A program made the translations under genes and the position numbers. The notes beneath the pieces were generated by a model. The model was not told where the DNA came from, did no database searches, and saw only the letters and a list, made by a program, of their open reading frames with translations. 64,000 nucleotides of DNA from an uncultured Gemmatimonadaceae bacterium. Its GTDB lineage: Bacteria > Gemmatimonadota > Gemmatimonadetes > Gemmatimonadales > Gemmatimonadaceae. Where the stretch lies: contig CAWHHI010000019.1 of the NCBI GenBank assembly GCA_963829055.1, positions 64,001 to 128,000 of the forward strand. Direction: 5' to 3'. Within the stretch, counting starts at the first letter, position 1, and the number at the start of each line of letters is the position of its first letter. Shown piece by piece: positions 1-62,162 of this stretch.

Positions 1-1139
1 ATATCGACACCGACGAACCGGAGCACCGGCGCGCCACGCGCCGCGTTATAGGCACGCATCCACCTAACGAGGTCCAGCACTTCGTCAGTGTTCCAGGTCC
101 AGAAGTACATGCCACGGACCAGCGCGGATGGATCGCCTTCGCCGGTGCGCACGTACCGATCGACGTCGAGTGCTTCCGGGAAACTCGCCTCGATGGCGAA
201 GACCGTGAATCCCATGCGCTCGACGAGAAATTCGAGCGCGCGATGCTTCATGCGGAAGAATTCACGTGTGCCGTGGCTGCCCTCGCCGAACCCGACGAGC
301 CGCGCATCACCGACTAGCGAACGCAGTGGCTCGAGATCATCGAGAGGGGCGGTGGGATCGTCGGTCGCGAACGGCGTCGCGTTCGCGAGCAGCCACGCCG
401 AGGCGCTTGCCGGGAGGGGCGTCACACCCTCGAAGCCAAGATTCAGCGGCTCAACAGGTGAATGAGTGAACTCTGGATCGAAAATGGCGGCATCGCTCCT
501 GGGCGGCAGCGTCCCGTGGTACCCGGTGACCGGCACCGATGAGGCGACGATCTCCAACCGTACATTGTCGACTCGCACCGTACCGACGCCGCGGAGCGCT
601 GCTCCGAACGTCAGACCGATCGCGTCCGCCGGGACATCCATGACGACCTCGTAGTCGCGCCAATCCTTGGTGCCAAGGATCGGACGATCGGAAAAGTCGT
701 CGTAGGGCGCCGTCGTACCGGGCGGCCGGTCTACCTTGAGAAACGGCCCGGCACCCATCCCACTCACGGTGTCGGCACGCATTCGTGCGGTCAGTCGCAC
801 GCGGCGTCCGCGGTAGGCATCGGCGCGGACCCGCTGCAACACGCGCCCCCCCTGCGAGAGATCGCTCGTTCGGGTCTCATTGTTCAGTCGAGCCGCCGCG
901 GTGCCGGTCGCGCGGATTTTCGTGTCTGTCACGACCGAGTAATAGTTCTCCGGCGAGGCCGTTGTCTCCCAGCCGTCGAGCGGGAACTCAGGGAGACCGG
1001 ATTTGGCACCGGGGTCGACTGGCCCATTCGGGGAGTCGCCTCCACAGCCCGCAACGAGAGAGATGGGCGCAGTCGAGATCGTGACAGAGAGGATTGACAG
1101 CGCGATCGAATGGCGGGTTCCGCGAATCAGTGATGCCAC
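1..1139 (-). CDS. Erythromycin-esterase family lipoprotein with an N-terminal beta-sandwich-like domain (3' end runs off window)
   Basis: Manual translation from GTG at 1139 (GGAGG just upstream). Lipobox-like SLVAGC, then ADAYRGRRVRL...W.DYEVVMDVP, then FGEGSHGTREFFRMKHR and MYFWTWNTDEVLDLVRWMR, typical of erythromycin esterases. Not in the ORF track because it is truncated. Confidence 0.8.
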   Translation of the reverse strand, partial: MASLIRGTRHSIALSILSVTISTAPISLVAGCGGDSPNGPVDPGAKSGLPEFPLDGWETTASPENYYSVVTDTKIRATGTAAARLNNETRTSDLSQGGRVLQRVRADAYRGRRVRLTARMRADTVSGMGAGPFLKVDRPPGTTAPYDDFSDRPILGTKDWRDYEVVMDVPADAIGLTFGAALRGVGTVRVDNVRLEIVASSVPVTGYHGTLPPRSDAAIFDPEFTHSPVEPLNLGFEGVTPLPASASAWLLANATPFATDDPTAPLDDLEPLRSLVGDARLVGFGEGSHGTREFFRMKHRALEFLVERMGFTVFAIEASFPEALDVDRYVRTGEGDPSALVRGMYFWTWNTDEVLDLVRWMRAYNAARGAPVLRFVGVD

Positions 1140-1215
1140 ACAGCCTCCGACGACCGGGACTCGATTCAGTTTTTTCCATCCCGAAGCGATCGAACAAACG
1201 TCGAGCTACGTCGTG

Positions 1216-2721
1216 CTACTTCGCGCGCGAGTGCTTCGGCGGGCGCGGCTTGCTCCACACTAGTATCACCGCGCAGTGCGTGTCGGGCCGACCCGTCTCC
1301 TTGAGCGATTGCGATCGAAACTCGGGCGGAGCCGCGGTCTTGTCCGTATACACCTCGATGCCACGCACATCGTACGGGCGCACGTCGTTGATGTCGTAAA
1401 CGGGGAACCCGTCGACGAACACGGCGGGATTGCACAGGTTGTTATAGGAGCCGCCGCCGGCACCGCTGACGATCGGCCTCGTGAACATGATGACGTTCTC
1501 GGATCCGTCCCACATGACGCGCGCGCCAGTGACGTTCCAGAGCAACTGCGATGTATCGAATACGCGGCGGCGTTCGATCTCCTCCGGCCCGATGAAGCGT
1601 CCGATTCCGGCTTTCTTCCGCTTCTCGAAGCCAGTGTTGTCGAGGCGCGCGCCACTACCGACGATGTTCACCGACGCGAGCGTCTGCGCCGCTTTGTCGA
1701 GCGTAATGTCCAGCGTCCGTTGCTCGCCGGTGCGCAATCCAACCGTTAGGCGCTTCGGGGCGAATCCAACCGCTCTGATCTCGATGGTCTGGCTTCCCGC
1801 GGGCATCGACGTCAGCGCGTAGGCACCCTCACTGGTCGTGCGCACGGAGATCGGAAAGCCGAACAACGCGACCTGCGCCTGATCGAGGAGCCGGCCGTCC
1901 GGACCGTGCACGACGCCCGAGAGCCGCGCGGTGCCGGTTGACGCAGGGGCGTCACCGCGCCGGACGACGCTATCGAGTCGCGCCAACTCCGCGGTCGTCG
2001 CCCCGGAATCCTGCATACTCACCGCGAACTCTCGCACGCCGAACGCGCGCTGGCCCAGATCGACCTCTACCAGGCCTGTCACGTGATCGGCAGCGGTCGC
2101 GCGGGCGATGACAGCGACATCCGTCGGCACGCCACAGATCATGTACGCCCCACTGGCGTTCGTGACCGCCGAACCGCGCCGCTCGGTTTGCGTCAGCCCG
2201 CGGCCGCCCACGTTCCATTCGCCCCAGCTGACGCTGACGGTTGCGTTAGGCAACGCAGCGCCGTCATCCACGTTTCGGACGCGCCCGAGCAGGACGCCGG
2301 TCGACTGCGCCTGGGGCGCGGGACACAGGCTGGCGTGCAGCGTCGCGGGGCTGGGCGTCGCGAGTCGTACGGCTGACAGCCCGGAATCCGGAAGCACCAG
2401 GGAGACTGGCGCGGCGCCGAACCCTAACGAGTCGAGCGTCGCGTGGTAGAACCGGAGTACCACCTGTCCGGCGGGGACACTGTCGATCTGGAATCGACCC
2501 GCCTGATCGGTAAGTGTGGAGAGGGTCGTGCCTTCGACGGTGACTTCGGCGTTGGCGAGCGGCCCGTTGGCGACCAGAGAGTCGTAGACAGTGCCCGCGA
2601 TCGACGCGACCGCGTGGGGTTGGCGTTCGCGTAGAGTGGCGCCTGACGCCAGCGCCAGGACAACGACCGGCACCATCAACACCCGACCGAACACAGGGTC
2701 ACCTCGGGATACACGGTGCAA
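1216..2721 (-). CDS. Secreted protein with several carboxypeptidase-regulatory-like (CarboxypepD_reg) domains and a C-terminal TonB-plug-like domain
   Basis: Signal-like N-terminus, repeated G.V.D...PL.NA.V / T...G.(F/Y) modules, C-terminal PAVFVDG...DVRGIEVY...CAVILVWSK. Confidence 0.75.
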   Translation of the reverse strand: MHRVSRGDPVFGRVLMVPVVVLALASGATLRERQPHAVASIAGTVYDSLVANGPLANAEVTVEGTTLSTLTDQAGRFQIDSVPAGQVVLRFYHATLDSLGFGAAPVSLVLPDSGLSAVRLATPSPATLHASLCPAPQAQSTGVLLGRVRNVDDGAALPNATVSVSWGEWNVGGRGLTQTERRGSAVTNASGAYMICGVPTDVAVIARATAADHVTGLVEVDLGQRAFGVREFAVSMQDSGATTAELARLDSVVRRGDAPASTGTARLSGVVHGPDGRLLDQAQVALFGFPISVRTTSEGAYALTSMPAGSQTIEIRAVGFAPKRLTVGLRTGEQRTLDITLDKAAQTLASVNIVGSGARLDNTGFEKRKKAGIGRFIGPEEIERRRVFDTSQLLWNVTGARVMWDGSENVIMFTRPIVSGAGGGSYNNLCNPAVFVDGFPVYDINDVRPYDVRGIEVYTDKTAAPPEFRSQSLKETGRPDTHCAVILVWSKPRPPKHSRAK

Positions 2722-2784
2722 TTCGTACGCGGGCCAATGCGGGCACTACACCAGCCGAATCTCCGCGTTCCGCGCTGCGGATGG

Positions 2785-3156
2785 CTAGGCTTTCCCGACT
2801 CCGGGTCGGCAGCAAAGTGGTCGGACCACGCGAAGGGGGCGTCGCCCGTTGTGGCGCGCCACGCCGGCGGAGTCGAAGGCGGGGTGTGAGAACGTCAGCG
2901 TATGGGTTCCGTCCGGAACTCCGCCGATCGTGAACCGTCCGCGCGCATCCGTCGTAGCGGCGAGCGTAGTGCCGATCACGTACACGGTCGCATCGCGAAG
3001 CGGCCCGCGCGCGAGCAGGCTGTCGTAGACGATTCCCTCGATCATCCCAGCCGGCACTTCGACACCCTGGGCCTTGCTCTGTTCGACGGCCCACCCACTC
3101 AGTACCAGACCTAACGCGACAACACTCGGCAACGGTCGCGCGAGCAGCGGCACCAC
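2785..3156 (-). pseudogene. Truncated paralog of the adjacent CarboxypepD_reg protein
   Basis: GIVYDSLLARGPLRDATV...TTDARGRF...HPAFDSAG parallels GTVYDSLVANGPLANAEV...TDQAGRF...HATLDSLG of 1216..2721, then similarity stops after about 100 aa. Confidence 0.55.
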
Positions 3157-4040
3157 TATCCTCCAGATCGTTTGATCTGGAACAATCGCTCGCGGGCCAA
3201 TCGGCGACCAGTAGGGGTCGCGGCCAATCCGCCCCCAGCGGTCTCCCGATACCGAACGTCCATGGAGCGGCCGATCTCGCCCATAGTGTCGATGACCTCA
3301 TCGGCCGGAATCGCGAACGTGATGCCCGCTAAGGCCATCTCGATGGCGGCCATCGCTATGGCCGCGCCCGTCGCGTTCCGGAACACGCACGGCAGCTCGA
3401 CGAGCCCGCCTAACGGGTCGCAGACGAGCCCGAGCGTGCCCTGCTGTGCAAGCGCGACCGCGTGCCCGGCCTGCGACGGCGACCCACCCAGCATCTCCGT
3501 CGCGGCACCTGCGGCCATGCCCGCCGCAGCGCCCGTTTCCGCCTGACAACCGCCTTCCGCGCCGGAGAGAGATGCGCGCTGCGCGACGACCGCGCCGATT
3601 AGCCCAGCGGTCGCGAGCGCATCGATCAACTTGTCATCACCAAGGCCACGTGCATCCGCGAGCCCGGTGAGCACCGCGGGGAGCACGCCCGCGCCGCCTG
3701 CTGTGGGCGCTGCGACGATGACGCCCATCGCAGCATTCACCTCCTGCACCGCCAGCGCGCGCGAGAGCACGTCGCGAAACGGCGTCCCGGTCATCGGGCC
3801 GGCAGGCCCCTCTCGCAACTTCGCGGCGTCGCCACCGACGAGCCCCGACGCGGATCGCAGATCACCGGTGAGTCCGCGCGATACCGCGCCACGCATCACA
3901 GCCAGCGCACGACCGAGCGCCTCGCGAATTTCCGCGACAGGCCGTCCCTGATCGCGAGCCTCGGCATCGAGCGCAACCTGGGCGAGCGTGGATCCGGACG
4001 CTTCCGCGTCACGGATGGCGTCGGCGAGTGCGTGATACAT
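3156..4040 (-). CDS. sdaAA: L-serine dehydratase, Fe-S dependent, alpha subunit
   Basis: IVAAPTAGGAGVLP, SGAEGGCQAE, GLVCDPLGGLVELPCVFRN, YRETAGGGLA. Start re-placed at ATG 4040 (MYHALAD). Confidence 0.95.
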   Translation of the reverse strand: MYHALADAIRDAEASGSTLAQVALDAEARDQGRPVAEIREALGRALAVMRGAVSRGLTGDLRSASGLVGGDAAKLREGPAGPMTGTPFRDVLSRALAVQEVNAAMGVIVAAPTAGGAGVLPAVLTGLADARGLGDDKLIDALATAGLIGAVVAQRASLSGAEGGCQAETGAAAGMAAGAATEMLGGSPSQAGHAVALAQQGTLGLVCDPLGGLVELPCVFRNATGAAIAMAAIEMALAGITFAIPADEVIDTMGEIGRSMDVRYRETAGGGLAATPTGRRLARERLFQIKRSGG

Positions 4041-4159: not shown

Positions 4160-4834
4160 TCATGCGCTGACTTTATCGAGACGGAAGGCCCACCGTACCC
4201 ACGGCAGCGTGCGAATGTCCGCGCGCACCTTCTCGTCAGGCGGCTCATCGACCTCGATGACCATGAACGCGTCGCCGCCGCGCCCTTTCCGCGTCAGGCG
4301 GAGCGTCGCGATGTTGATGCCGTCCTCGGCCAGAATCGTGGCGATGCGAGCGACCGATCCGGGGACGTCCTCCGCCACGAGCACGATGGTGTTGTAGCTC
4401 CCGGTCACCTCGACAGGATAGCCGTCGATCTCCGTGACGAGCACGCGGCCGGCGCCTAACGACGACCCGACCATCACCGCCTTCCGATCCCCTCGCTCGA
4501 CGGTGATGCGGACCGTGTTCGGATGCACGTCCGCCTCTTCCCCCAGTGTCGTCTTCTCGAACCGGAAGTCCAGCGCCTCGCGCTCGGCAATCGTCAACGC
4601 TTCGCGGATACGCTCGTCATCGGGCCGAAATCCCATCAGGCCGCCGACGATCGCCTTATCGGTTCCGTGACCCTCACCCGTCCGCGCGAACGACCCGTGC
4701 AGCTCGACACGCGCGTGCTCCGGAGTCCCACCGACAAGACACCGGGCCAACAACCCGAGTCGGCACGCGCCCGCCGTGTGGCTCGAGCTCGGCCCCACCA
4801 TGACGGGCCCGATGATGTCGAGCAGCGATACCAT
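4160..4834 (-). CDS. sdaAB: L-serine dehydratase beta subunit with ACT domain
   Basis: DIIGPVMVGPSSSHTAGA, GSFARTGEGHGTD, HPNT, C-terminal ACT (DVPG...INIA). Confidence 0.95.
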   Translation of the reverse strand: MVSLLDIIGPVMVGPSSSHTAGACRLGLLARCLVGGTPEHARVELHGSFARTGEGHGTDKAIVGGLMGFRPDDERIREALTIAEREALDFRFEKTTLGEEADVHPNTVRITVERGDRKAVMVGSSLGAGRVLVTEIDGYPVEVTGSYNTIVLVAEDVPGSVARIATILAEDGINIATLRLTRKGRGGDAFMVIEVDEPPDEKVRADIRTLPWVRWAFRLDKVSA

Positions 4835-4841: not shown

Positions 4842-7742
4842 TCAGCCGGCTTTGCGCTTCAGGGGCCGAGGCAGTAGTGGGCGCAGATACTGTCCGGTGT
4901 ACGACGCGTCGACCTGAGCGACCTGCTCGGGCGTTCCAGCAGCAACGATCTCACCACCTTTGTCTCCGCCCTCGGGACCAAGGTCGATGATCCAGTCGGC
5001 GGTCTTGATGACATCCAGATTGTGCTCGATCACGAGCACGGTGTTCCCCCGGTCGACGAGGCGATGCAGCACCTCGAGCAGGAGCCTAACGTCCTCGAAG
5101 TGCAGACCGGTCGTCGGCTCATCGAGGATGTAGAACGTACGACCGGTGTCGCGCTTCGACAGCTCGGTCGCGAGCTTCACGCGCTGCGCTTCGCCACCGG
5201 ATAGCGTCGTCGCGCTCTGCCCGAGGTGAATGTAGCCGAGTCCGACGTCCATCAGCGTCTGCAGCTTCTGATGGATGCGTGGCTGGTTCTCGAAGAACGC
5301 GGTCGCGTCCTCGACAGTCATCTCGAGAACGTCGGAGATGCTCATGCCGCGGAAACGAACCTCGAGCGTCTCGCGATTGTAGCGCTTCCCCTTGCAGACG
5401 TCGCACGGCACGTACACGTCAGGCAGGAAGTGCATCTCGATCTTGAGCAGCCCGTCGCCCTGGCACGCCTCGCAGCGCCCACCCTTCACGTTGAACGAGA
5501 ATCGTCCAGGCCCGTAACCGCGGATCTTCGCCTCGGGCATTTCCGCGAACAGATCCCGGATCGGTGTGAACAATCCGGTGTACGTCGCCGGGTTCGAGCG
5601 CGGCGTGCGCCCGATCGGACTCTGGTCGATGTCGATGACCTTGTCGATGTGCTCGAGGCCGGTGATCGACTTGTGCGCGCCCGGAATTACGCGGGCGCGG
5701 TAGAAGTGTCGCGCCAGCGAGCGATGCAGAATGTCCTCGATGAGCGTCGACTTGCCCGAGCCGGAAACACCAGTCACGGTGACGAACAACCCGAGCGGGA
5801 TATCGACGTCGAGGTTGTGCAAGTTGTGCTCACGCGCACCGAGCACACGAATCGAACGACGTGGATCAGCGGGTCGCCGTGTAGCCGGGATCGGGATCTT
5901 GAGCGCGCCGCTGAGATACCGGCCGGTGAGCGACGACGGGTTGCGCGTCACCTCGTCGACGGTGCCGCTCGCGATGACGATGCCGCCATGCTTACCAGCT
6001 CCGGGCCCGAGGTCGAGCAGATAGTCGGCCGAACGCATCGTCTCGTCGTCGTGCTCGACGACGATCACCGTGTTCCCGAGATCGCGCAGCTGGCACAGCG
6101 TGTCGAGCAGCCGCGCGTTGTCACGCTGGTGCAGTCCGATGGACGGCTCATCCAGGATGTACAACACGCCCACGAGTCGCGAGCCGATCTGTGTCGCGAG
6201 ACGAATGCGCTGCGCCTCGCCGCCCGACAGCGACTCGGCCGAGCGACCTAACGTGAGATATTCGAGCCCGACGTTCACGAGGAATCGCAGACGCTCGCGA
6301 ACCTCCTTGAGAATCGGGCCGGCGATCTCGGCATCGAGGCCAGGCTTCCCATTGTTGCGAACAGGAACCGACTCGAAGAACTGCAGGCTCTCGGCGATCG
6401 ACATCTCGACGAGCTCGCCGATGTTGCGCGAGTCGATCGTGACGCCGAGCGATTCGGGCTTGAGACGACGCCCGCCGCACTCGTTGCACGGCTTCGCGAT
6501 CATGTACTCCGACAGCTCCATCCGGACGCTGTCGGATTCCGTCTCGGAATAGCGGCGCTGGATGTTCGCGACGATACCTTCCCACTCGATCGCGTTAGGG
6601 CTCGCTGTCTGCGATCCCGAACGAGCGCGGGCTTTCTTGCTCCCCGTTCCCTGCTCCCCGTTCCCGTTCGCCTTCTTGTCGACTCCGTACAGCAGGCAAT
6701 CGCGAACCTTCTGCGGAAGGTCCTGCCACGCGGCGTGGAGATCGAACTTCAACTGCTTGGCGAGTCCAGGCAGGATCACGCGACGCAGATATCCGTCCGG
6801 TTCACCCCACGGCAGGATCACGCCTTCCAGAATCGACAGCGCCGGGTCGCCGAGTATGAGCTCTTCGCTGACCTCGTCGCGCGTGCCGAGTCCGCCGCAC
6901 GCCGCGCACGCGCCGAACGGCGAGTTGAACGAGAAGTGCCTCGGCTCCATCTCGGGCATCGAGATGCCGCACGCGGCGCAGCCGTAGCGCTCCGAGAAGA
7001 GCGTCGGCGTCGCCTTCGAGCCTTCGTGCCTAACGACTTCCACCGTGCCGTCGGCGAGCTTGAGCGCCGTCTCCAGCGAGTCGTTGAGCCGGTTGCGATC
7101 TTCAGCCCTGACGACCAGACGATCGACGATGATAGACACGTCGTGGTTCTGACGCTTGTTCAGCTTCGGCGGACTCGCCAGCTCGATGACGGCGCCGTCG
7201 ACGACGGCGCGGACGAAGCCCTGCTTGCGCGCTGACTCGAACAGCTCGCGGAACTCACCCTTTCTGCCGCGGACGAGCGGCGCGAGGATCTCGATGCGCG
7301 TGCCCGATGGCCATTCCAGAACGGAGTCCGTGATCTGTCCCGCGCTCTGACGTTCGACCGGAAGGCCGCAGTTCGGACAGTGCGGCGTGCCGGCGCGGGC
7401 GTACAGCAGGCGGAGATAGTCGTAGATCTCGGTGACCGTTCCGACCGTGGAGCGAGGATTGTGGCCGGCGGTCTTCTGCTCGATGGAGATCGCGGGCGAC
7501 AGCCCTTCGATGGAATCGACGTCCGGCTTTTCCATCAAGCCGAGGAACTGTCTCGCGTAGGCGGAGAGCGACTCGACGTAGCGGCGTTGCCCTTCCGCGT
7601 AGATCGTGTCGAACGCGAGCGACGATTTTCCCGACCCGGACAGGCCGGTGATGACGGTCAGCCGGTCGCGCGGGATCGTGACGTCAATGTTCTTGAGGTT
7701 GTGCTCGCGCGCGCCGCGGATGATGAGCGCTTCGTCAGTCAT
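4842..7742 (-). CDS. uvrA: Excinuclease ABC subunit A
   Basis: [23 protein letters not shown], two LSGGEAQR signatures, Zn fingers. Confidence 0.99.
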
Positions 7743-10524: not shown

Positions 10525-11284
10525 ATGATTGAGCTTCGCTCGCTGACCAAGCGCTACGGCTCGTTCACCGCGGTCAACGGCGTCGACCTCGACGTTCCCC
10601 GCGGTGAGCTGTTCGGATTCCTCGGCCCGAACGGCGCGGGGAAGACCACGACGCTGCGGATCATTGCCGGAATTCTGCGGCCCTCGTCAGGCACCGTCCG
10701 CATTGGCGGCATCGACATCTCCGCCGATCCGACCGCCGCGAAGCAGAAGCTCGGGTTCATCCCGGACCGTCCATTCATCTACGAGAAGCTGACCGGCGTC
10801 GAGTTCCTTCGATTCGTGGCCGGCTTGTACGGTCAGAGCGGCGCCGACGTGGAGCGACGCGGGCGCGAGCTGCTCGCGCTGTTCGACCTCGAGGAGTGGC
10901 AGGACGAGCTCGTCGAGAGCTACAGCCACGGCATGCGCCAGAAGCTCATCATCTCCAGCGCGTTCGTGCACAAACCGGAAGTGATCGTCGTCGACGAACC
11001 GATGGTGGGCCTGGATCCCAAGGCCGCGCGCACGCTCAAGGATCTCTTCCGCGAGTACACGCGCCGCGGAAATACCATCATGATGTCGACGCACACGCTG
11101 GAAGTCGCGCAGAGCATGTGCGACCGCATCGCGATCATTCAGCGCGGGGTGATCCGCGCCTGCCGGCACCATGAGCGAGCTGCGTGCGTCCGCCGAATCC
11201 GGCGTGACGGGCCTCGAGGAGATCTTCCTCCGCCTAACGGGTGAGGGCTTGTCGCGAGAGCTGGTCGAGGTTCTGGATGCTTGA
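10525..11284 (+). CDS. ABC transporter ATP-binding protein (apparent +1 frameshift near 11163)
   Basis: GPNGAGKTT, YSHGMRQK, VVDEP. The natural C-terminus GTMSELR...LEEIFLRLT continues in another frame to TGA 11284. Confidence 0.9.
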
Positions 11285-36295: not shown

Positions 36296-38456
<2,161 letters not shown>

Positions 38457-47052: not shown

Positions 47053-47203
47053 CCGGCACAAACGCGTTCGCCTGGACCGCGCACCACTGGACGTACGGCA
47101 TCCTCGAGACGGTCGATGCGGCCGGTCGGAAAAACACGCGCACTCGCGAGCGACCCAACGTCAATTGACGTTAGGCGGCCGCGAAAGTGAGCGGTCTTGT
47201 CGG

Positions 47204-52652: not shown

Positions 52653-55126
52653 CAGCTCGCAGCCTCGATCCGCTCGTACATGTCGTCGCCCATCTCGTCC
52701 GTGCCGGTCGGCAACTCGAGCTCCAGCCGGTCGCTCTGTGTCACGACCGACGCTCCGGTTTCCTCATCGTAGCGCACGCTGATGATCTGATCCAATCCCT
52801 CGCGCACCGACTCGATGTGCGTGATGAGAATGACCTGCTCGAACCGATCCTGCAACCGGCGCAGCAGCTCGACGACGTTACCGCGACGCGACTCGTCGAG
52901 GGAGCCGAACACTTCGTCCAGCACGAGGAGCGAGAACTGCTGACCGGCGCGCTCGGCGATCATCTGGGAGATCGCGAGGCGGAGGACGAGGTTCGCGAGG
53001 TCCTCCTCGCCTCCCGAGATCACCGGCTTGGGGATGCCGTCCTCGAGCACGAGGACGTTGTAGTTGTCGTCGAGCTCCAGCTCGGAATATCGAGCGTCCG
53101 TCAGGTCGTGCAGGAACGCGCTCGCAAGCTCGGAGAGCTCGGGACGGAGCTGAAAGTTCAGATCGGTGCGGAGATCCGAGTACGCACGATCGAGCTCATC
53201 ATGAAGGCGACGGTCGACCTGCAACGCGTCGAGCTTGCCTTGCGTGCGCTCGAGCTCCTGCCGCGACTTCTCCGCGCCTTCCAGCGCCGAGCGTGCGGCG
53301 TTCGCGTCGCCCTGAGCCGACGCCGCGGCAACTTCGGCAGCGCGAGCGTTGGTAGCCGCGGTCTCGTACGCGGTGCGCAGGGCGGCGTAGTCAGTCTCGG
53401 AGAACTCGACGCTCTGACGACGCTCGCGGAGCCCGGCGAGTCTGTCGCGCAGCGCGCCTAACGTGGCGCTCACACGCGCGCGCTCGATCTCCAGCTGCGG
53501 TGCACGGTCGATCTGCGCGCTGAGCCGAGTTGCACGCTCGTTCAGCGGAACGAGACGCTCCACCTCGCGCCTGAGCGACGCGTGCTTCGCGCCATCATAG
53601 CCGGGCGGAATGGCCGCAAGGTCGCGCCGCACGACGTCATGCCGCTGCTCCTTGGCGCTGATGTCCTTCGAGAGCTGCGTCAGCTCCTGCACCGCGGCCT
53701 GCACCTTCGCCAGTCGCCGCTCGAGAGCACCAACCTCGCCGGTGAGCGCGCGACGTGCCTCGTCGAGCTGCTTCACCTCCTCGGGCATCTCCTCCAGCTG
53801 GTCGAGGCGTGTGTTGTAGAAGCGGCCGTCGACGGCGATGGTCTCGAGCTGGTCGTCGAAATGCTCGAGAACACCGCGGTAGTGCTGATCGAGCGGCCGC
53901 GTGCACACAGGGCAGGTGCCCTCTTCGCCGAGATCGACGATGCGGTCGCGCTGCGCCTTGAGCTCCGCGTACTGGCGGCGCAGCGCGTCACGCTTCGTCT
54001 CCGCTTCCTGCCGGTCGCGCACCCACTCGGTACGCCGCGCTTCGAGGTGGCCGAGACTCTCTTCGAGCTCCTTGCGCTTGGCCTCGACCGCGATCGTCGC
54101 CTCTTCCTCGAGGATCGGCGCATTGAACACCCGCGCGCGCCGCTCTCGCAGGCGCGTGAGCTCATCGCTCAGCGAGCGCTCGGTCTCGACGAGCGTCTGC
54201 CGTCTCCCTTCCTCGCGCGCCAGACGCTCGTAGCGCTGGAACTCCTCGGCGATCTGCGAGAGCGGCTGCAGCTCGGTGGCCAGGGCCTCGAGCTCCGCGC
54301 TTGCGGCGCTCACGCCGGCAAGCTCACGCGTCACGCGATCGGATTCGCGGGCCAGTCCCGCTTCCTCCGCCTCCGCCACGCGGAGCTCCGCGAGCAGTTC
54401 CTGGAGACGATCGCGCTCTTTCTGTGCGCGCTCCCAGCGCGGCGTTAGGTCGGCGAGCACCGCCTCGCGCTCACGACGCGCCTTCTCGGCTGTCGCCGCC
54501 GCCTGACGCGCTGCCGCGAGACGGTGCTCCGAATCAGCGAGCACACGCGCCACGACGTCCGGATCGGGCATCGCGCCGCGCAGGCCGGCGGTTTCGGCCG
54601 AGATGAGGCGTCGACGCTCGCGGACGAGCTGCTGCGCGGTTCTCAGCTTCTCGTAGCCGAGTACGCGGGAGAGGAACTGTGCGCGCTCGGACGGCCCCAT
54701 GGCCGCCATCACGTTCAGCTCCTTCTGCCCCGTGAAATACGTATTGAAAAACTCCGAGCGCGACATGCCGAGCCGGCGCTGCAGCAGCTCGTTGACGCCG
54801 GTGATCGTGTTCGCGATCGGCTGCGAGCCGCCATCGAGGTACAGCTCGGAATTCGTTAGGCCGCGGATGATGCGGTAGCGATGACCCGCGAGCTCGAAGT
54901 CGAGCTCCACGCGTACCGGCGAGCGCGGCGCCGCGCGCGTGAAGCGGATGGAGTCGCGCGTACCGCGAGTCGCGGAATTGCCGTACAGCGCCCACGCGAT
55001 GGCTTCGAGCAGCGTCGTCTTGCCGGAGCCGTTCGTGCCGATGATGCCGGTGAGGCCCGTCTCGAACGTGACGACGGTGTCCGCGTGCTGGCGGAAATTC
55101 TGGAGCTGAAGCCGGTGGAGTCTCAC
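52652..55126 (-). CDS. sbcC: Rad50/SbcC SMC-like ATPase
   Basis: L.LQNFRQH, GTNGSGKTT, coiled coils, Zn hook CPVC, ISGGE, LLVLDE.FGSLD, LITH. Confidence 0.93.
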   Translation of the reverse strand: MRLHRLQLQNFRQHADTVVTFETGLTGIIGTNGSGKTTLLEAIAWALYGNSATRGTRDSIRFTRAAPRSPVRVELDFELAGHRYRIIRGLTNSELYLDGGSQPIANTITGVNELLQRRLGMSRSEFFNTYFTGQKELNVMAAMGPSERAQFLSRVLGYEKLRTAQQLVRERRRLISAETAGLRGAMPDPDVVARVLADSEHRLAAARQAAATAEKARREREAVLADLTPRWERAQKERDRLQELLAELRVAEAEEAGLARESDRVTRELAGVSAASAELEALATELQPLSQIAEEFQRYERLAREEGRRQTLVETERSLSDELTRLRERRARVFNAPILEEEATIAVEAKRKELEESLGHLEARRTEWVRDRQEAETKRDALRRQYAELKAQRDRIVDLGEEGTCPVCTRPLDQHYRGVLEHFDDQLETIAVDGRFYNTRLDQLEEMPEEVKQLDEARRALTGEVGALERRLAKVQAAVQELTQLSKDISAKEQRHDVVRRDLAAIPPGYDGAKHASLRREVERLVPLNERATRLSAQIDRAPQLEIERARVSATLGALRDRLAGLRERRQSVEFSETDYAALRTAYETAATNARAAEVAAASAQGDANAARSALEGAEKSRQELERTQGKLDALQVDRRLHDELDRAYSDLRTDLNFQLRPELSELASAFLHDLTDARYSELELDDNYNVLVLEDGIPKPVISGGEEDLANLVLRLAISQMIAERAGQQFSLLVLDEVFGSLDESRRGNVVELLRRLQDRFEQVILITHIESVREGLDQIISVRYDEETGASVVTQSDRLELELPTGTDEMGDDMYERIEAAS

Positions 55127-57232: not shown

Positions 57233-59201
57233 CCCCGGGAGTGGTGCGCAACGGTTGCACCGGCGTACGCGTCGGCTGGCGCGGCGGGACAATGCGTCGG
57301 AACTGTCCCGCGAAGAACGTCTTCACGTCTTCCGGCCGCTCGTGTAGTGTCGCGTTGCGCGCACGGATGACTTCCTCTTCGGTCGCGATGGCGATGACGT
57401 CTTTCACCCAGCCTAACGTGATGCCTGCATCGAGCCGGCGCAGGGACCGCACCACCGCGTGCTCCAGCGTGACCTCCGCCGCCTGCGGATAGCGCTCCGC
57501 GCCCTCGCGACCAAGCATCACGGCGGGACGCGGGAAGCGGACGAAGATCGGCTGCGTGAAATGGGGGTGACGCACCATCAGCTGTCCCTTCTCGAGCGTC
57601 GCCAGCTTCGTTCGCGTGGATGGACTGAGCACCGCGTACCCGGGCGTCGCGAGCTCGTCCGAGTCCATGCGTCCATAGAGCGCGGTTCCCGAGTTCCCGA
57701 CGACGCGTCGATGCACCTGTGAGCGGAACTGTTGCGCGCTGAACAACACGAGCCCGAGGTATCGGCCGCGCTCGGATATATCGAGCAGCATCTTCCGAAC
57801 GTAGGTGTCCTGACCGTCACCGGGTGCGTACTTGTTCAGCTCATCCACGAACACGATCACGTGCTTCACGCCCAGGTCGCGCCGCTCGAGATGCTCGCGG
57901 AGTTTCGACACGACGCGCGCGAAGATCAGGTCCTGCGCGTCTTCCTCGAGATTCGCGACGTCCACCACGTACACCGCGCGGTCCGCGAAGTTGCCGAACG
58001 GCAGGTCGCTCACGGTGCCGTCGTCCGTCACGAGACCGGCGCAACGCGTAGAAATGTTCGACAGGCGATTCCGGACTTTTCGGATGGTGGCGACGTGGTG
58101 TGTGCGCCAGCTCTGGTCGTCCTTGGCCTCGAGCGCGCGCAGCACGTCGCGGAACCACTTCTCGAGATCGGAGAACGACTGCACGCGATAGCGCGTGGCG
58201 CCGAGGATGTCATCGCTGAAGTCCTTGTCGATGACGCGCTCCTTGATGAAGTCGATGAGCGCGTCCGCCTTCGCGTCGATGTCATCCTTGTTGAGCAATA
58301 CCTCGGCGAACTGCAGCACTTCGCGCAGTCCCCACGTCAGCGGCGTGACGTTCTCGAGGAGCGCCTCGTTCGACCGCAGCGTGTTGAGCGAGAACCCCTT
58401 CGCGTTGTACGGCGCGAAGTATTCGACGTTCTCGAACGGCCGCGCAGGGACACCGAGCTTCTCGTACAGGTCGCGGTCGCGATCATCGAGCACGCCCGGC
58501 TGGTCGAGGAAGCAAAGGTCCGGACCTTTGACGTTGAAGCACACGGCGGCGATGGAGCCGCGGCTGGCCGGAAAGTGCGTGAAGATCGACGAGAGCAGCC
58601 ACTCGACGGCGCTCGTCTTCGTGGCGAGGCCGGATACGCCCGTGATGTTCAGGTGCGCGGCCTCGGGTCCGACGAGGAAGTCGGCGTCGAGGTAGATCGC
58701 GGAGTCGGTGCCGCCCGCGCGGTACACGCCGATTGGAATACCGGTGTGATGCCCGTCGCGCAGGTAGCCGTCCATCCGGAGCGCGACGGCCACGTCTTCC
58801 TCGGTCGCGAGAAAGACCTGACCCATCGGCACGGGTTGCAGCGGCTCGTCCGGAATCTGACGGAGTACCGCCGCGGTGTAGAGGCGGATCTCGGCTCGGT
58901 CAGTCGCGGCGAATCCCGCGCTCTGCGGCGTGCCGTCGTGGCCAATGACGTCGTGCAGCGGCGATGCGAGGTCCGTGTAGCTGAACCCCTCGACGACAAC
59001 GCCGTACACGTGTGGGATCAGACCATTCGCGACGCGTCCATCGACGCGCACGATCGTGCCGATCCCGACTGGAGATTCGAGCGCCGTCCAGAAATGAAAT
59101 TCGTGCGGAGTGTTCGGGCGTCGTTCTGTCGCGACGACGCGTCCGAGGGCCGCGGGGATTTCTGACGGAGCGGACGGCGTGCCTGAGGGTGTATCTGTCA
59201 C
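57213..59201 (-). CDS. herA: HerA family helicase/ATPase (bacterial subtype)
   Basis: N-terminal HAS-barrel-like region, HLNITGVSGLATKTS variant Walker A, FNVKG.DL, IVFVDELNKYAP, ERGR.LG..L..AQQ. Confidence 0.88.
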   Translation of the reverse strand: MTDTPSGTPSAPSEIPAALGRVVATERRPNTPHEFHFWTALESPVGIGTIVRVDGRVANGLIPHVYGVVVEGFSYTDLASPLHDVIGHDGTPQSAGFAATDRAEIRLYTAAVLRQIPDEPLQPVPMGQVFLATEEDVAVALRMDGYLRDGHHTGIPIGVYRAGGTDSAIYLDADFLVGPEAAHLNITGVSGLATKTSAVEWLLSSIFTHFPASRGSIAAVCFNVKGPDLCFLDQPGVLDDRDRDLYEKLGVPARPFENVEYFAPYNAKGFSLNTLRSNEALLENVTPLTWGLREVLQFAEVLLNKDDIDAKADALIDFIKERVIDKDFSDDILGATRYRVQSFSDLEKWFRDVLRALEAKDDQSWRTHHVATIRKVRNRLSNISTRCAGLVTDDGTVSDLPFGNFADRAVYVVDVANLEEDAQDLIFARVVSKLREHLERRDLGVKHVIVFVDELNKYAPGDGQDTYVRKMLLDISERGRYLGLVLFSAQQFRSQVHRRVVGNSGTALYGRMDSDELATPGYAVLSPSTRTKLATLEKGQLMVRHPHFTQPIFVRFPRPAVMLGREGAERYPQAAEVTLEHAVVRSLRRLDAGITLGWVKDVIAIATEEEVIRARNATLHERPEDVKTFFAGQFRRIVPPRQPTRTPVQPLRTTPGDDPYGF

Positions 59202-61436: not shown

Positions 61437-61466
61437 CGGGGCGCGGAAGGCGGACGGCGGCGCAGC

Positions 61467-62105
61467 CTAACGAGGCTGTGTGACCGCGACCAACAAGCCA
61501 TCATACGCCGGAACGAGGATCGACGTGACGCGTCGATCATCCGCGATACGCGCATTGAAGTCGCGCAGCGCACGAACGTCGTCATCGTCGCCGCGCGCCT
61601 CGGCATTCGCGACGCGACCGCCGAGCAGCGCGTTGTGGGCCACGATCATCCCGCCGGGACGCACCAGGCGCAGCGCCCACTCGAAGTACGTCGCCAGTGG
61701 CGCGCGGTCGGCGTCCAGAAACACCAGATCGAACTCCTCACCATCCAGCGACGGCAATACGTCCAGCGCGCGTCCGCGACGCACCTGCACCACCGCCGCG
61801 AGACCCGCGCGCCCGACGTACCGTTCGGCGAACGCAGCGTGACGCTCGTCGCGCTCGAGCGTAATGAGCGTGCCGTCGCTCGGGAGCGCGCGCCCCATCC
61901 AGATGGCCGAGTATCCGCCCAGCGTACCTACCTCGAGCACGCGCCGTGCGCCCAGCGCGCGAAGCAATACCTGTAGAAAGCGGCCAGCGTCGGGCGAGAT
62001 TGATGCGGGCGGCAGACCGGTGCGGTCAGCTTCCTCGCGCAACGCGCCGAGGAGCTCGTCTTCGGGCGCGAATAGCGTGACGATGTACTCGGAGAGGTGA
62101 TCCAC
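61467..62105 (-). CDS. O-methyltransferase (caffeoyl-CoA/COMT-like)
   Basis: LEVGTLGGYSAIW, FDLVFLDAD, VRPGG.IV.HN, DGL. Confidence 0.92.
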   Translation of the reverse strand: MDHLSEYIVTLFAPEDELLGALREEADRTGLPPASISPDAGRFLQVLLRALGARRVLEVGTLGGYSAIWMGRALPSDGTLITLERDERHAAFAERYVGRAGLAAVVQVRRGRALDVLPSLDGEEFDLVFLDADRAPLATYFEWALRLVRPGGMIVAHNALLGGRVANAEARGDDDDVRALRDFNARIADDRRVTSILVPAYDGLLVAVTQPR

Positions 62106-62162
62106 GCGAGCGCCCGCGGTTGAAGGCGGTTGAGGAAGCCCGCCTAACGTTTCGTCGGCCGG

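What the first reader, a model, noticed from the sequence alone, without database searches (positions are those of the whole stretch)
63..62149. Highly iterated non-palindromic heptamer CCTAACG embedded throughout coding DNA
Seen: exact copies as CCTAACG start at 63, 2423, 3110, 3409, 4455, 5085, 6247, 7029, 11233, 14366, 15121, 15827, 18472, 25487, 26649, 28391, 30475, 31339, 31597, 35774, 36808, 37731, 41136, 43192, 43980, 48530, 50103, 50284, 52021, 53457, 57412, 61466 and 62143. Copies as CGTTAGG start at 1744, 2244, 6593, 9092, 11885, 13507, 18734, 19287, 19994, 23246, 44428, 46091, 47169, 49275, 50912, 54443 and 54854. That is about 50 by manual count, one per about 1.3 kb, plus three CCTAAC(T/A) variants. 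A rough zero-order estimate at about 67% GC gives only about 7. Most CTAA/TTAG I noticed lie inside this word. It occurs in several reading frames of conserved genes (uvrA, gyrB, ligA, glpK, recF, sbcC), forcing codons rare at this GC content (CTA, TTA), and it supplies the stop codon of four genes (26650, 44433, 49277, 61467). Established: such abundant words are known as HIP1, DNA-uptake sequences, Chi and KOPS, but I do not recognise this one. Inference: a lineage-specific functional DNA signal, such as an uptake sequence, a Chi-like resection signal, a nucleoid-protein site, or an asymmetric methylation motif enriched by biased repair.
Basis: partly seen in the sequence, partly recalled or inferred. 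Interest (0 to 1): 0.9.

Follow-up and report, generated by a model that had tools for sequence, protein, structure and literature searches.

The report
Hyper-abundant DNA word in Gemmatimonadaceae genomes
A soil bacterium and roughly a fifth of its family carry one eight-letter DNA word about once per thousand letters all over the chromosome, even inside essential genes and against their own codon habits, much like the tags that Neisseria and Haemophilus use to recognise their own DNA, but what reads the word is still unknown.

Summary
CCTAACG occurs 50 times in the window (33 +, 17 -) against 2.9 expected. It occurs 6,391 times in the 7.78 Mb genome, about 220 times the density in word-poor relatives. 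The full word is (G)CCTAACG, with no further flanking information. It is written by point substitution into all four stop-free frames, spacers and stop codons. It holds 57% of all TTA codons and 483 of 6,426 stop codons.

It is strand-symmetric, with no replication or transcription polarity. It is spaced more evenly than control words. It is rare in divergent promoter spacers and absent from three compositionally odd blocks.

The organism is a Gemmatimonadaceae. The same word is hyper-abundant in about 65 of 301 family genomes, scattered across the tree, and almost nowhere else in the phylum.

This anatomy best fits a DNA-uptake-sequence or HIP1-like self tag spread by molecular drive. No reader was found. 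ComEC, PilT and DprA do not discriminate. Vsr, classical methyltransferases, AddAB/RecC, VirB4, integron integrase and topoisomerase IB are each missing from some word-rich genomes.

The word equals the core site of the order's integron attC sites, and this is unexplained. Earlier reports of this scan noted the same word in other genomes.

The parts
63..69 (+). word copy, antisense in ORF running off the window start; read CTC GTT AGG (L-V-R)
1744..1750 (-). word copy, sense in CarboxypepD_reg gene 1216-2694(-); CGC CTA ACG (R-L-T)
2244..2250 (-). word copy, sense in gene 1216-2694(-); CCT AAC GCA (P-N-A)
2423..2429 (+). word copy, antisense in gene 1216-2694(-); TCG TTA GGG (S-L-G)
3110..3116 (+). 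word copy between called genes
3409..3415 (+). word copy in serine dehydratase alpha gene 3156-4163(-); CCG TTA GGC (P-L-G); kept in G002 and G005, not in G003 and G004
4455..4461 (+). word copy in serine dehydratase beta gene 4160-4834(-); TCG TTA GGC (S-L-G)
5085..5091 (+). word copy in uvrA 4842-7742(-); GAC GTT AGG (D-V-R); named relatives have GTG CGG for the same V-R
6247..6253 (+). word copy in uvrA; ACG TTA GGT (T-L-G); kept in the 4 genus-g1 genomes aligned there and in 6 genomes of other genera
6593..6599 (-). word copy in uvrA, sense; CCT AAC GCG (P-N-A) in a variable, gapped stretch
7029..7035 (+). word copy in uvrA; GTC GTT AGG (V-V-R); same site in G014 and G200
9092..9098 (-). 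word copy in transglutaminase-like gene 8775-10346(+), antisense; GAC GTT AGG (D-V-R)
11233..11239 (+). word copy in ABC ATPase gene 10525-11244(+), sense; CCT AAC GGG (P-N-G)
11885..11891 (-). word copy in ABC_tran_2 gene 11277-12962(+), antisense; CTC GTT AGG (L-V-R)
13507..13513 (-). word copy in gene 13286-13828(-), sense; CCT AAC GCC (P-N-A)
14366..14372 (+). word copy in CcmH gene 13825-14400(-); GCG TTA GGC (A-L-G); kept in all 4 genus-g1 genomes aligned there
15121..15127 (+). word copy in CcmF_C gene 14400-15149(-); GCG TTA GGC (A-L-G); all 4 aligned g1 genomes have the CTC form, so specific to this genome
15827..15833 (+). word copy in cytochrome c assembly gene 15389-16447(-); GCC GTT AGG (A-V-R)
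18472..18478 (+). word copy in FGGY kinase gene 18297-19784(-); GCG TTA GGC (A-L-G)
18734..18740 (-). word copy in FGGY kinase gene, sense; CCT AAC GCT (P-N-A)
19287..19293 (-). word copy in FGGY kinase gene, sense; TGC CTA ACG (C-L-T)
19994..20000 (-). word copy in IF-2B family gene 19824-20825(-), sense; CCT AAC GGC (P-N-G)
23246..23252 (-). word copy in RecF-like gene 22876-24147(+), antisense; GCG TTA GGC (A-L-G)
25487..25493 (+). word copy in gyrB 24615-26570(+), sense; CAC CTA ACG (H-L-T)
26649..26655 (+). word copy that supplies the TAG stop of Peptidase_M56 gene 26650-29025(-)
28391..28397 (+). word copy in gene 26650-29025(-); GCG TTA GGC (A-L-G)
30475..30481 (+). word copy in gene 30167-30937(+), sense; GGC CTA ACG (G-L-T)
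31339..31345 (+). word copy in nucleoside phosphorylase-like gene 31089-32429(-); GCG TTA GGC (A-L-G)
31597..31603 (+). word copy in gene 31089-32429(-); GCG TTA GGC (A-L-G)
35774..35780 (+). word copy between called genes
36808..36814 (+). word copy between called genes (may be the uncalled 5' part of ligA)
37731..37737 (+). word copy in ligA 37134-38456(+), sense; CCT AAC GTG (P-N-V)
41136..41142 (+). word copy between called genes
43192..43198 (+). word copy in AMP-binding enzyme gene 41434-43461(+), sense; CCT AAC GTC (P-N-V)
43980..43986 (+). word copy in ORF 43786-44433(+), sense; CGC CTA ACG (R-L-T)
44428..44434 (-). word copy that supplies the TAG stop of ORF 43786-44433(+) (no Pfam family)
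46091..46097 (-). word copy in short-chain dehydrogenase gene 45389-46111(-), sense; CGC CTA ACG (R-L-T)
47169..47175 (-). word copy between called genes
48530..48536 (+). word copy in ORF 48060-48983(+), sense; GGC CTA ACG (G-L-T)
49275..49281 (-). word copy that supplies the TAA stop of ORF 49277-49807(-) (no Pfam family)
50103..50109 (+). word copy between called genes
50284..50290 (+). word copy between called genes
50912..50918 (-). word copy in esterase gene 50419-51558(+), antisense; TCG TTA GGT (S-L-G)
52021..52027 (+). word copy in GNAT gene 51678-52598(-); TCG TTA GGT (S-L-G)
53457..53463 (+). word copy in SbcC-like gene 52652-55126(-); ACG TTA GGC (T-L-G)
54443..54449 (-). word copy in SbcC-like gene, sense; GAC CTA ACG (D-L-T)
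54854..54860 (-). word copy in SbcC-like gene, sense; GGC CTA ACG (G-L-T)
57412..57418 (+). word copy in gene 57213-59051(-); ACG TTA GGC (T-L-G)
61466..61472 (+). word copy that supplies the TAG stop of O-methyltransferase gene 61467-62105(-)
62143..62149 (+). word copy between called genes

Best explanation
(G)CCTAACG is a genome-wide 'self tag' of the same kind as the DNA uptake sequences of Neisseriaceae and Pasteurellaceae and, on recent evidence, HIP1 of cyanobacteria. Some step of DNA exchange between cells of this lineage (uptake, or handling of incoming DNA before recombination) is inferred to prefer fragments that carry the word in either orientation. Alleles with the word are then recombined into chromosomes more often than alleles without it. 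The word therefore spreads by point substitution (molecular drive), wherever the protein tolerates it, until about one copy per kilobase-sized fragment is reached.

Shown: the anatomy, namely abundance, substitution mode, strand symmetry, spacing, distribution in the genome and across the family.

For: Abundance and extent:
- 6,391 copies in 7.78 Mb (821 per Mb) against 3.7 per Mb in 269 kb of word-poor relatives.
- The logo ends at 8 positions, with G at -1 in 78% of copies. Copies in short true spacers show the same logo, so there is no hidden longer element.

Written by substitution against codon usage:
- 3,969 copies in called genes against 189-316 under codon-aware nulls.
- 1,557 of 2,734 TTA codons and 758 of 3,733 CTA codons lie in the word.
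- At UvrA column 1229, x-P-L-G is CCG CTC/CTG GGN in 11 of 11 word-poor genomes and CCG TTA GGC/A in 10 of 11 word-rich ones.
- At column 878, three rich genomes changed amino acids to fit the word.

Orientation-free:
- 3,154 + against 3,237 - copies.
- The strand split in 137 bins of 50 kb is binomial (chi-square p = 0.17).
- GC-skew-positive bins hold 1,069 + and 1,158 -; GC-skew-negative bins hold 1,698 + and 1,684 -.
- Sense 1,915 against antisense 2,054, although the nulls differ four-fold.

Limited by demand rather than by ease of creation:
- The chance of a further copy is 0.2 per kb within 100 bp of a copy and plateaus near 1.0 per kb from about 500 bp.
- Gaps under 200 bp make up 6.4%, against 15-17.5% for 12 control words of equal abundance.
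- Density is similar in called genes and in the rest of the genome.

Location resembles what I recall of uptake sequences:
- 1.66 per kb in convergent spacers, 1.26 in tandem spacers and 0.49 in divergent (promoter) spacers.
- 263 of 804 TAA and 220 of 1,657 TAG stops lie in the word.

Other support:
- Partial words outside perfect copies are 1.6-3.5 times enriched over word-poor relatives, as expected for a balance of drive and decay.
- Turnover within the genus is high: 19 of 63 site-by-genome comparisons are conserved at 78% nucleotide identity.
- ComEC, three PilT-family genes over the family cut-off, PilB-type ATPase hits and DprA are present in G000. No ComEA-type match was found in G000 itself; the four other genomes searched have one.
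- The HIP1 paper's abstract and introduction report that HIP1 raises transformation efficiency and propose it as an uptake signal (PMC13756078).
Against: - No uptake experiment exists, and I found no report of natural competence in this phylum. One search was run; none of its 10 listed papers holds 'Gemmatimonas'.
- The competence genes tested do not discriminate. ComEC is in 33 of 34 genomes, rich and poor. PilT and DprA are in 5 of 5, and a ComEA-like gene in 4 of 5, missing in G000 itself.
- No receptor candidate was found. Only three PilA-like pilin genes matched my pattern in G000.
- Unlike the dialects reported for the uptake sequence of Neisseriaceae (title and abstract of PMC3630211 in the listing), relatives here have either the same word or none. 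Samples of poor G016 and G122 show no other hyper-abundant word.
- There is no excess of close inverted pairs (terminator-like): 81 pairs within 60 bp, where about 300 were expected.
- At 7-8 bp the word is shorter than the uptake sequences I recall.
- An intracellular reader would give much of the same anatomy.
Confidence: 0.4

Rival explanations
1. The word is the binding or loading site of an intracellular protein that works in either orientation and needs about one site per kilobase. Examples would be a chromosome-organising protein, a repair or recombination loader, or a marker telling a nuclease that DNA is the cell's own. Copies are kept by selection rather than by transfer bias.
For: - Short-range exclusion and a flat plateau of spacing.
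- Equal use of both orientations and of coding and non-coding DNA.
- Depletion in divergent promoter spacers.
- Some sites are held across genera at saturated divergence: UvrA column 1229 in 10 of 11 rich genomes.
- Absence from compositionally foreign blocks.
Against: - Selection on any one of about 6,400 sites must be very weak, yet the word overrides codon usage and even amino acids.
- Turnover within the genus is high: 19 of 63 comparisons conserved, against 21-23% for any 7-mer.
- No candidate protein co-occurs with the word among those tested.
Confidence: 0.2
2. A methylation and repair ratchet, as proposed for HIP1. A methyltransferase marks the word, and a mismatch-processing activity tied to it converts near-matches into the word.
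For: - HIP1 is linked to two methyltransferases, and such a ratchet has been proposed (PMC13756078, introduction).
- The patchy distribution with one fixed specificity is typical of restriction-modification genes (inference).
- A conserved Eco57I-type N6-adenine methyltransferase of about 1,050-1,400 aa exists in the family.
Against: - Vsr is in 0 of 13 rich and 4 of 11 poor genomes.
- Rich G000, G088 and G107 have no hit to PF01555, PF00145 or PF02384 beyond that conserved protein.
- The conserved methyltransferase is in 24 of 24 genomes fetched, rich and poor. Its tree follows the species groups, and no alignment column separates rich from poor.
- A single-mismatch repair bias does not explain two-step paths such as CTC to TTA.
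- It also does not explain equal numbers in contexts whose null expectations differ four-fold.
Confidence: 0.1
3. The word acts as an integron core site. The integron integrase, or another tyrosine-recombinase-fold enzyme, reads the genome-wide copies, for example as landing or excision points for gene cassettes. Alternatively, the reader of the word evolved to recognise cassette ends.
For: - In word-poor relatives, nearly all hits to the 8-mer are attC sites of one-strand cassette arrays with units of about 550-600 bp.
- In locus L001, 26 GTTRRRY matches are GTTAGGC, and 23 of the 24 contexts tallied have C in front, so the 8-mer is identical.
- GTTRRRY is the published core site at cassette boundaries (PMC3053210, passages).
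- Integrons are known in Gemmatimonadota (PMC8618304, passage).
- G000 has an integrase at the family cut-off, and attC-like pairs whose inverse-core arm carries the full word in 8 of 9.
- The most enriched one-off variant, CCTAACA (6.6 times the null), is the inverse-core form of the arrays.
Against: - The integrase is neither necessary nor sufficient. It is over the cut-off in 18 of 31 relatives, most of them word-poor.
- It was not found in rich G107 (99% complete), is a stop-bearing partial match in rich G088, and is in fragments in rich G014.
- The genome-wide copies lack the paired inverse core. About 70 inverted pairs at 40-130 bp compare with about 50 in the control arrangement, and many of the 70 are real attC sites on C20.
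- Site-specific recombination leaves no in-frame synonymous substitutions (inference).
- Topoisomerase IB, the other enzyme of that fold, is missing from 8 of 40 rich genomes, including G134 at 100% completeness.
- A hexamer fits the GTTRRR consensus by chance about 0.4% of the time, so coincidence is possible.
Confidence: 0.08
4. A Chi-like or KOPS-like polar signal for double-strand-break resection or chromosome segregation.
For:
- G000 itself has an AddAB-like gene pair on C15.
Against: - No orientation bias relative to GC skew, including contig C16 with a clear skew switch.
- AddAB-type nuclease is in 3 of 13 rich and 6 of 11 poor genomes.
- RecC is absent from rich G000, G056 and G088.
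- The on/off distribution within a family is not expected of a core repair signal (inference).
- The 220-fold enrichment exceeds what I recall for known Chi sites.
Confidence: 0.03

Closest known systems
DNA uptake sequences (DUS of Neisseriaceae, USS of Pasteurellaceae)
   Same: - A short non-palindromic word at about one copy per kb, equal on both strands.
- Written into genes by substitution at the cost of codon and even amino-acid choice.
- More evenly spaced than chance and common just downstream of genes.
- Missing from foreign DNA, and lineage-specific.
- Co-evolution of uptake sequences with proteomes is described in PMC2817400 (abstract start seen in the listing).
   Different: - 7-8 bp with no flanking information.
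- No graded dialects: the same word or none, scattered over the family tree.
- No excess of inverted pairs.
- Competence is unknown in the phylum, and no receptor was found.
- Biased uptake is untested.
HIP1 (the highly iterated palindrome of cyanobacteria)
   Same: - A hyper-abundant octamer spread by substitution without indels.
- Polyphyletic distribution, present in coding and non-coding DNA, quasi-regular spacing.
- Function long unknown and now tied to transformation (PMC13756078, abstract and introduction).
   Different: - Not a palindrome.
- No cognate methyltransferase shared by the word-rich genomes.
- No link to type IV secretion: VirB4 is in 2 of 41 genomes.
- Confined to part of one family rather than most of a phylum.
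Integron core site (GTTRRRY) of attC and attI
   Same: - The word's complement contains GTTAGGC, an exact instance of the consensus.
- With its preceding C it is identical to the core-site end of the attC sites in this order's cassette arrays.
   Different: - The genome-wide copies are solitary 8-mers inside ordinary genes.
- They lack the inverse core, the palindromic attC body, cassette structure and any dependence on an integrase gene.
Chi and KOPS (polar, over-represented chromosome words)
   Same: Short, asymmetric and over-represented in the core genome.
   Different: - No replication-related orientation bias.
- Readers are absent from several word-rich genomes.
- Far higher enrichment.

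Membership tests
DNA uptake sequence (USS/DUS) | Competent cells take up or integrate DNA bearing the word preferentially | not testable with these tools
   Needs an isolate and an uptake assay.
DNA uptake sequence (USS/DUS) | Hundreds to thousands of copies, both orientations equal, throughout coding and non-coding DNA | tested here: met
   6,391 copies, 3,154 + and 3,237 -, on all 20 contigs. About 31% lie outside called genes, which cover 72% of the genome.
DNA uptake sequence (USS/DUS) | Copies arise by substitution and shape codon and peptide choice | tested here: met
DNA uptake sequence (USS/DUS) | Spacing more even than random | tested here: met
   Gaps under 200 bp make up 6.4%, against 15-17.5% in 12 control words. 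The coefficient of variation is 0.88 against 0.98 for gaps under 8 kb.
DNA uptake sequence (USS/DUS) | DNA uptake machinery encoded | tested here: inconclusive
   ComEC, PilT and DprA are present but equally so in word-poor relatives. The ComEA-like gene was not detected in G000 itself. G000's pilB appears split, probably by assembly indels.
DNA uptake sequence (USS/DUS) | A specific receptor (a minor pilin in Neisseria, recalled) | tested here: inconclusive
   A pattern scan found only three PilA-like genes in G000. No co-distribution test of pilins was possible.
DNA uptake sequence (USS/DUS) | Related lineages carry related dialects of the word | tested here: not met
   Rich genera share the same core. 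Poor G016 (99 kb) and G122 (44 kb) show no other hyper-abundant word. One named contig (L045, 10.5 kb) has 9 copies of a one-off 8-mer; this was not followed up.
HIP1-type iterated palindrome | Palindromic octamer | tested here: not met
   The word and its complement differ.
HIP1-type iterated palindrome | Cognate DNA methyltransferase(s) co-distributed with the word | tested here: not met
   No family among PF01555, PF02384 and PF00145 is shared by the six rich genomes examined. The one conserved Eco57I-type enzyme is also in all poor genomes fetched. Methylation itself is untested.
Chi | Orientation bias with replication direction | tested here: not met
Chi | RecBCD or AddAB reader present | tested here: not met
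   PF12705 is in 3 of 13 rich genomes. RecC is in 0 of 3 rich genomes.
KOPS / architecture-imparting sequences | Strong skew that switches at the origin and terminus | tested here: not met
   No switch at the GC-skew switch of contig C16. Spearman correlation with GC skew is -0.19, the size and sign expected from base composition alone.
Integron attC site | Core site GTTRRRY | tested here: met
   The complement of the word contains GTTAGGC.
Integron attC site | Paired inverse core RYYYAAC 57-141 bp away with an imperfect palindrome between, downstream of a cassette gene | tested here: not met
   Only about 70 inverted pairs at 40-130 bp among 6,391 copies, against about 50 in the control arrangement. 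There is no flanking conservation.
Very-short-patch repair word bias | Vsr endonuclease with a partner C5 methyltransferase | tested here: not met
   Vsr is in 0 of 13 rich genomes. PF00145 is in 1 of 6 rich genomes.

The most novel reading that the evidence does not exclude
The identity with the integron core site is not a coincidence. In word-rich Gemmatimonadaceae, the machinery that handles exchanged DNA and the integron system use one and the same eight-letter address. Either chromosomal DNA has been tagged with the cassette-end word, so that cells preferentially import both their own genes and the community's gene cassettes. Or genes ending in the word (483 stop codons lie in it) are raw material from which new cassettes and attC sites are born. 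That would bear on the unsolved origin of integron cassettes.
Probability: 0.08. Interest if true: 0.9.

Novelty: new variant of a known kind. Interest (0 to 1): 0.7.

Why it matters
As far as I recall, only two bacterial families have experimentally established uptake sequences. HIP1 of cyanobacteria is just being drawn into the same frame (PMC13756078). This case is independent and lies in a largely uncultured soil phylum. It is as strong as the classical ones and comes with a natural experiment.

Within one family the same word is present at every level, from about 0.1 to 30 times a control word. The tree forces at least four to seven switches between rich and poor lineages. That makes the old questions directly testable by phylogenetic profiling: what reads such words, and whether drive alone builds them.

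Practical uses:
- The word flags foreign or chimeric DNA in metagenome-assembled genomes.
- It predicts which Gemmatimonadaceae might be genetically tractable by natural transformation.
- Its identity with the integron core site may link chromosomal DNA exchange to cassette traffic.

Tried and rejected
Candidate readers, each tested by presence in word-rich against word-poor genomes:
- ComEC: 33 of 34 genomes.
- PilT and DprA 5 of 5, ComEA-like 4 of 5. No discrimination.
- Integron integrase.
- Vsr: 0 of 13 rich.
- PF01555, PF02384 and PF00145 methyltransferases. An early impression that rich genomes have fewer of them did not hold in the second sample.
- Conserved Eco57I-type methyltransferase: 0 discriminating columns in 24 sequences.
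- AddAB-type nuclease and RecC.
- VirB4: 2 of 41.
- Topoisomerase IB: it looked promising at 19 of 20 rich against 9 of 17 poor. A second panel gave 13 of 20 rich, 6 of 12 intermediate and 16 of 28 poor.

Other dead ends:
- My first reading of one-off variants as depleted was wrong. Against real word-poor relatives they are enriched.
- Dialects were not found.
- The look-up of sequencing runs gave 20 holders in 16 studies, all stored as contigs, so no raw reads were available to look for base modification.
- Read laying on window 1-20000 printed 40 of 617 variant places, none in a word copy where 0.3 were expected. This is uninformative.
- No CRISPR array was found in G000 with my simple finder, so no spacer route to phages.
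- Rfam gathering search of the window found nothing.
- Four smaller word-free gaps of 12-16 kb carry ordinary metabolic genes plus one plasmid-type replication initiator. They are not clearly mobile elements.
- Literature: neither the 7-mer nor its complement appears as a whole word in any relevant paper, and the 7- and 8-mers appear only inside primers and the like.
- Structure prediction, fold search and complex prediction were not used, because there was no candidate protein.

Full report
**Observation**

The DNA search finds 50 copies of CCTAACG in the window, 33 on + and 17 on -, at the stated coordinates.
- The expectation is 2.94 (sd 1.73, largest 8) from 100 dinucleotide-preserving shuffles, or 7.5 at zero order.
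- The three near-variants exist. 33 of 42 CTAA and 17 of 26 TTAG in the window lie in the word.
- Pfam confirms UvrA, an FGGY kinase, a RecF-like protein, GyrB, LigA and SbcC/SbcD.
- The four stop codons named are ORF ends. Two of those ORFs have a Pfam family; two have none.
- By my own crude gene calls, 38 copies are inside genes, 4 on stop codons and 8 between called genes.

**Whole genome**

- The window is G000:C19:64001-128000 of a 7.78 Mb, 20-contig, 66.6% GC assembly.
- Every contig carries the word. There are 3,154 + and 3,237 - copies, 6,391 in all, or one per 1.2 kb.
- 86% of all CCTAA are followed by CG.
- Aligning all copies shows G at -1 in 78%, weak preferences at -2 and +7, and nothing beyond.
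- 461 copies in short spacers between called genes give the same logo, so coding constraint hides no longer element.
- My gene caller is crude: 6,426 genes covering 72% of the genome. The assembly has many split genes, probably from indel errors. Gene-based figures are therefore approximate.

**How the word is written**

- The word sits in all four frames that do not create a stop:
  - N-CG TTA GG-N (x-L-G), 1,555 copies
  - CCT AAC G (P-N-x), 1,155 copies
  - C CTA ACG (x-L-T), 758 copies
  - C GTT AGG (x-V-R), 495 copies
- Called genes hold 3,969 copies. Within-gene synonymous shuffling gives 316, and resampling with word-free codon usage gives 189.
- 1,557 of 2,734 TTA codons and 758 of 3,733 CTA codons lie in the word.
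- 263 of 804 TAA and 220 of 1,657 TAG stop codons lie in the word.
- In uvrA the orthologues of named relatives encode the same residues with common codons, for example GTG CGG CTG where G000 has GTT AGG CTC.
- Across 27 UvrA orthologues, column 1229 (x-P-L-G) is CCG CTC/CTG GGN in 11 of 11 word-poor genomes and CCG TTA GGC/A in 10 of 11 word-rich ones. At column 878, three rich genomes changed residues to fit the word.
- The word therefore spreads by substitution, not insertion, and can override protein sequence.

**Orientation and spacing**

- There is no polarity. In 137 bins of 50 kb the strand split is binomial (chi-square 152.8, p = 0.17).
- Bins with positive GC skew hold 1,069 + and 1,158 -. 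Bins with negative skew hold 1,698 + and 1,684 -.
- Contig C16, with a clear GC-skew and gene-strand switch, shows no matching switch.
- The 33:17 split in the window is local noise. The rest of C19 has 17 + and 30 -.
- Sense and antisense copies are equal (1,915 and 2,054), although their null expectations differ four-fold.
- Spacing is more even than chance. The rate of meeting the next copy is 0.2 per kb within 100 bp, 0.43 at 100-200 bp, and plateaus near 1.0 per kb from about 500 bp.
- Gaps under 200 bp make up 6.4%, against 15-17.5% for 12 control 7-mers of equal abundance.
- Close inverted pairs are not enriched.
- Density is 1.66 per kb in convergent spacers, 1.26 in tandem spacers and 0.49 in divergent ones.

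**Word-free DNA**

- Seven gaps exceed 12 kb, where 0.3 are expected.
- The three largest (50, 44 and 32 kb) all lie at contig ends, and two have GC of 0.70-0.73.
- They carry housekeeping genes such as chorismate synthase and glutamine synthetase. They look like chimeric joins with a word-poor organism, or foreign DNA.
- The four smaller gaps hold ordinary metabolic genes and one plasmid-type replication initiator.

**Who has it**

- UvrA places the organism in Gemmatimonadaceae, with 76-85% identity to named Gemmatimonadetes and Gemmatimonadaceae MAGs.
- Those named contigs, about 21 kb each, have no copy at all.
- Among 31 relatives, all 7 genomes of the genus have 2,501-5,112 copies of the 8-mer, and one other genus (G014) has 6,360. 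Most others have 5-50 copies, about a tenth of a reversed control word.
- Among 301 family genomes in 75 genera, I count by hand 65 genomes in about 15 genera with at least 1,000 copies. There is a continuum below that, always strand-symmetric. Contrasts occur within a genus: in g55, seven genomes have 3,244-4,141 copies and three have 4-66.
- Among 251 genomes of the phylum, enrichment outside this family appears only moderately, in genus g108 of a second family. None appears in the 84 genomes of ten further families. One genome of a third family was moderately enriched.
- These tallies include a few unpublished genomes (G013, G050, G051, G147, G256, G274, G301, G352, G379, G448).
- Samples from rich genomes of other genera show the same core. 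GTTAGG is flanked by C on either side in 64-87% of copies.
- Poor genomes show no alternative word.
- On a UvrA tree, rich and poor genomes are interspersed, and well-supported branches force at least 7 changes. Three rows were mis-extracted and are ignored.
- On the tree of a conserved methyltransferase, at least 4 changes are forced.
- Against 269 kb of word-poor relatives, the word is 220 times denser in G000 (821 against 3.7 per Mb). Partial words outside perfect copies are 1.6-3.5 times denser.
- Within the genus, at about 78% nucleotide identity, 19 of 63 site-by-genome comparisons are conserved, against 21-23% for any 7-mer. The usual other state is the CTC-Leu form, two substitutions away. 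Copies therefore turn over while the total is maintained.

**The integron coincidence**

- In word-poor relatives the 8-mer hits cluster every 550-600 bp on one strand.
- These clusters are integron cassette arrays. Each unit ends in an attC site that runs from GCCTAAC-A to C-GTTAGGC.
- GTTRRRY and RYYYAAC are the published core and inverse core (PMC3053210, passages). Integrons are recorded in this phylum (PMC8618304, passage).
- The genome-wide word is thus identical, flanking C included, to the core-site end of the order's attC sites.
- The most enriched one-off variant is the inverse-core form.
- G000 has an integrase at the family cut-off, and scattered attC-like pairs whose inverse-core arm carries the full word in 8 of 9.
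It is over the cut-off in 18 of 31 relatives, mostly poor ones. It was not found in rich G107, is a stop-bearing partial match in rich G088, and is fragmented in rich G014.
- The genome-wide copies lack any attC structure.

**Search for a reader**

- None of the tested families co-occurs with the word.
  - ComEC is in 33 of 34 genomes. PilT and DprA are in 5 of 5, and a ComEA-like gene next to pilT/pilB in 4 of 5.
  - Vsr is in 0 of 13 rich and 4 of 11 poor genomes.
  - AddAB-type nuclease is in 3 of 13 rich and 6 of 11 poor. RecC is in 0 of 3 rich.
  - VirB4 is in 2 of 41.
  - The three main methyltransferase families have no hit in rich G000, G088 and G107, apart from one conserved protein.
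  - That conserved Eco57I-type enzyme is in 24 of 24 genomes fetched, with no column separating rich from poor.
- A bacterial topoisomerase IB in the window (20898-21953) looked promising, at 19 of 20 rich against 9 of 17 poor. A second panel gave 13 of 20, 6 of 12 and 16 of 28. Complete rich genomes lack it.

**Reading**

- The anatomy is that of uptake sequences and HIP1:
  - a short word spread by substitution
  - orientation-free
  - saturating at about one copy per kilobase
  - avoided in promoters
  - absent from foreign DNA
  - in drive-decay balance
  - lineage-specific
- The HIP1 paper (abstract and introduction read) reports that HIP1 raises transformation efficiency and proposes it as an uptake signal.
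- Points against:
  - Nothing is known of competence in this phylum.
  - The competence genes do not discriminate.
  - There are no dialects.
  - There are no inverted pairs.
- The rivals are:
  - an intracellular, orientation-free binding or self-marker site kept by selection (0.2)
  - a methylation and repair ratchet (0.1)
  - an integron or tyrosine-recombinase role (0.08)
  - a Chi/KOPS-like signal (0.03)

**Earlier notes of this scan**

After my analysis, a word search showed eight earlier findings on other genomes of the family. They describe the same word, the same comparison with uptake sequences and the same unknown reader. Two of them note the integron identity. They agree with what I found independently, but they are not independent evidence.

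**Literature**

Neither the 7-mer nor its complement appears as a whole word in any relevant paper. As substrings, the 7- and 8-mers appear only in primers and similar sequences. In the library searched, the word is not described as a genomic signal. Subscription journals are not covered.

Noticed in passing
window 4044-4158 and 10348-10480: Two small inverted-repeat elements of about 115 and 130 bp. They have dozens of look-alikes in other genomes of the genus. Their arm words are among the next most over-represented 8- and 9-mers of the genome. They look REP- or MITE-like. Rfam gives only sub-threshold chance hits.
   Followed up: partly
window 20898-21953 (-): A bacterial type IB topoisomerase (Topoisom_I plus Top1B_N_bact), with a second paralogue at G000:C4:50478-51122. 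Its presence in the family is patchy: 32 of 40 word-rich, 8 of 16 intermediate and 25 of 45 word-poor genomes.
   Followed up: yes
G000:C20:119000-209000 (outside the window): An integron integrase at C20:208041-208958 scores 265.7 bits against a cut-off of 265. Scattered attC-like pairs lie over about 90 kb on the 3' side of the gene, an unusual layout. Their inverse-core arms carry the full word in 8 of 9, unlike the arrays of word-poor relatives.
   Followed up: partly
L001 (G021:C95:1-20000), L002-L005: Chromosomal integron cassette arrays in word-poor Gemmatimonadales. Cassettes are about 550-600 bp, all in one orientation, with small ORFs and homogeneous attC sites.
   Followed up: partly
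G000:C6:5440-55038, C11:1-44055, C6:591808-623330: Three word-free blocks at contig ends carry housekeeping genes, and two have GC of 0.70-0.73. They are probably chimeric joins or foreign DNA. The word could serve as a purity check for MAGs of this group.
   Followed up: partly
G000:C12:489800-493300 and elsewhere: Many genes are split into adjacent frames (pilB, pilC, aroC, the 5' part of ligA). This suggests indel errors in the assembly, and it lowers my gene-call coverage to 72%.
   Followed up: no
L183-L206 (24 family genomes): An N6-adenine methyltransferase of about 1,050-1,400 aa of the Eco57I type (NPPW motif) is conserved in every genome fetched, rich or poor. This is unusual for a restriction-type enzyme. 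Its function is unknown.
   Followed up: partly
L045 (named Gemmatimonadota contig, 10.5 kb): A one-letter variant of the 8-mer (G for the first A) occurs 9 times where 0.8 are expected. It may be a dialect in another lineage.
   Followed up: no
window 1-10000 in public metagenomes: Near-identical sequence is held by 20 runs of 16 studies from rhizosphere, soil and freshwater sediment. The species is widespread, which would allow population-genomic tests.
   Followed up: partly
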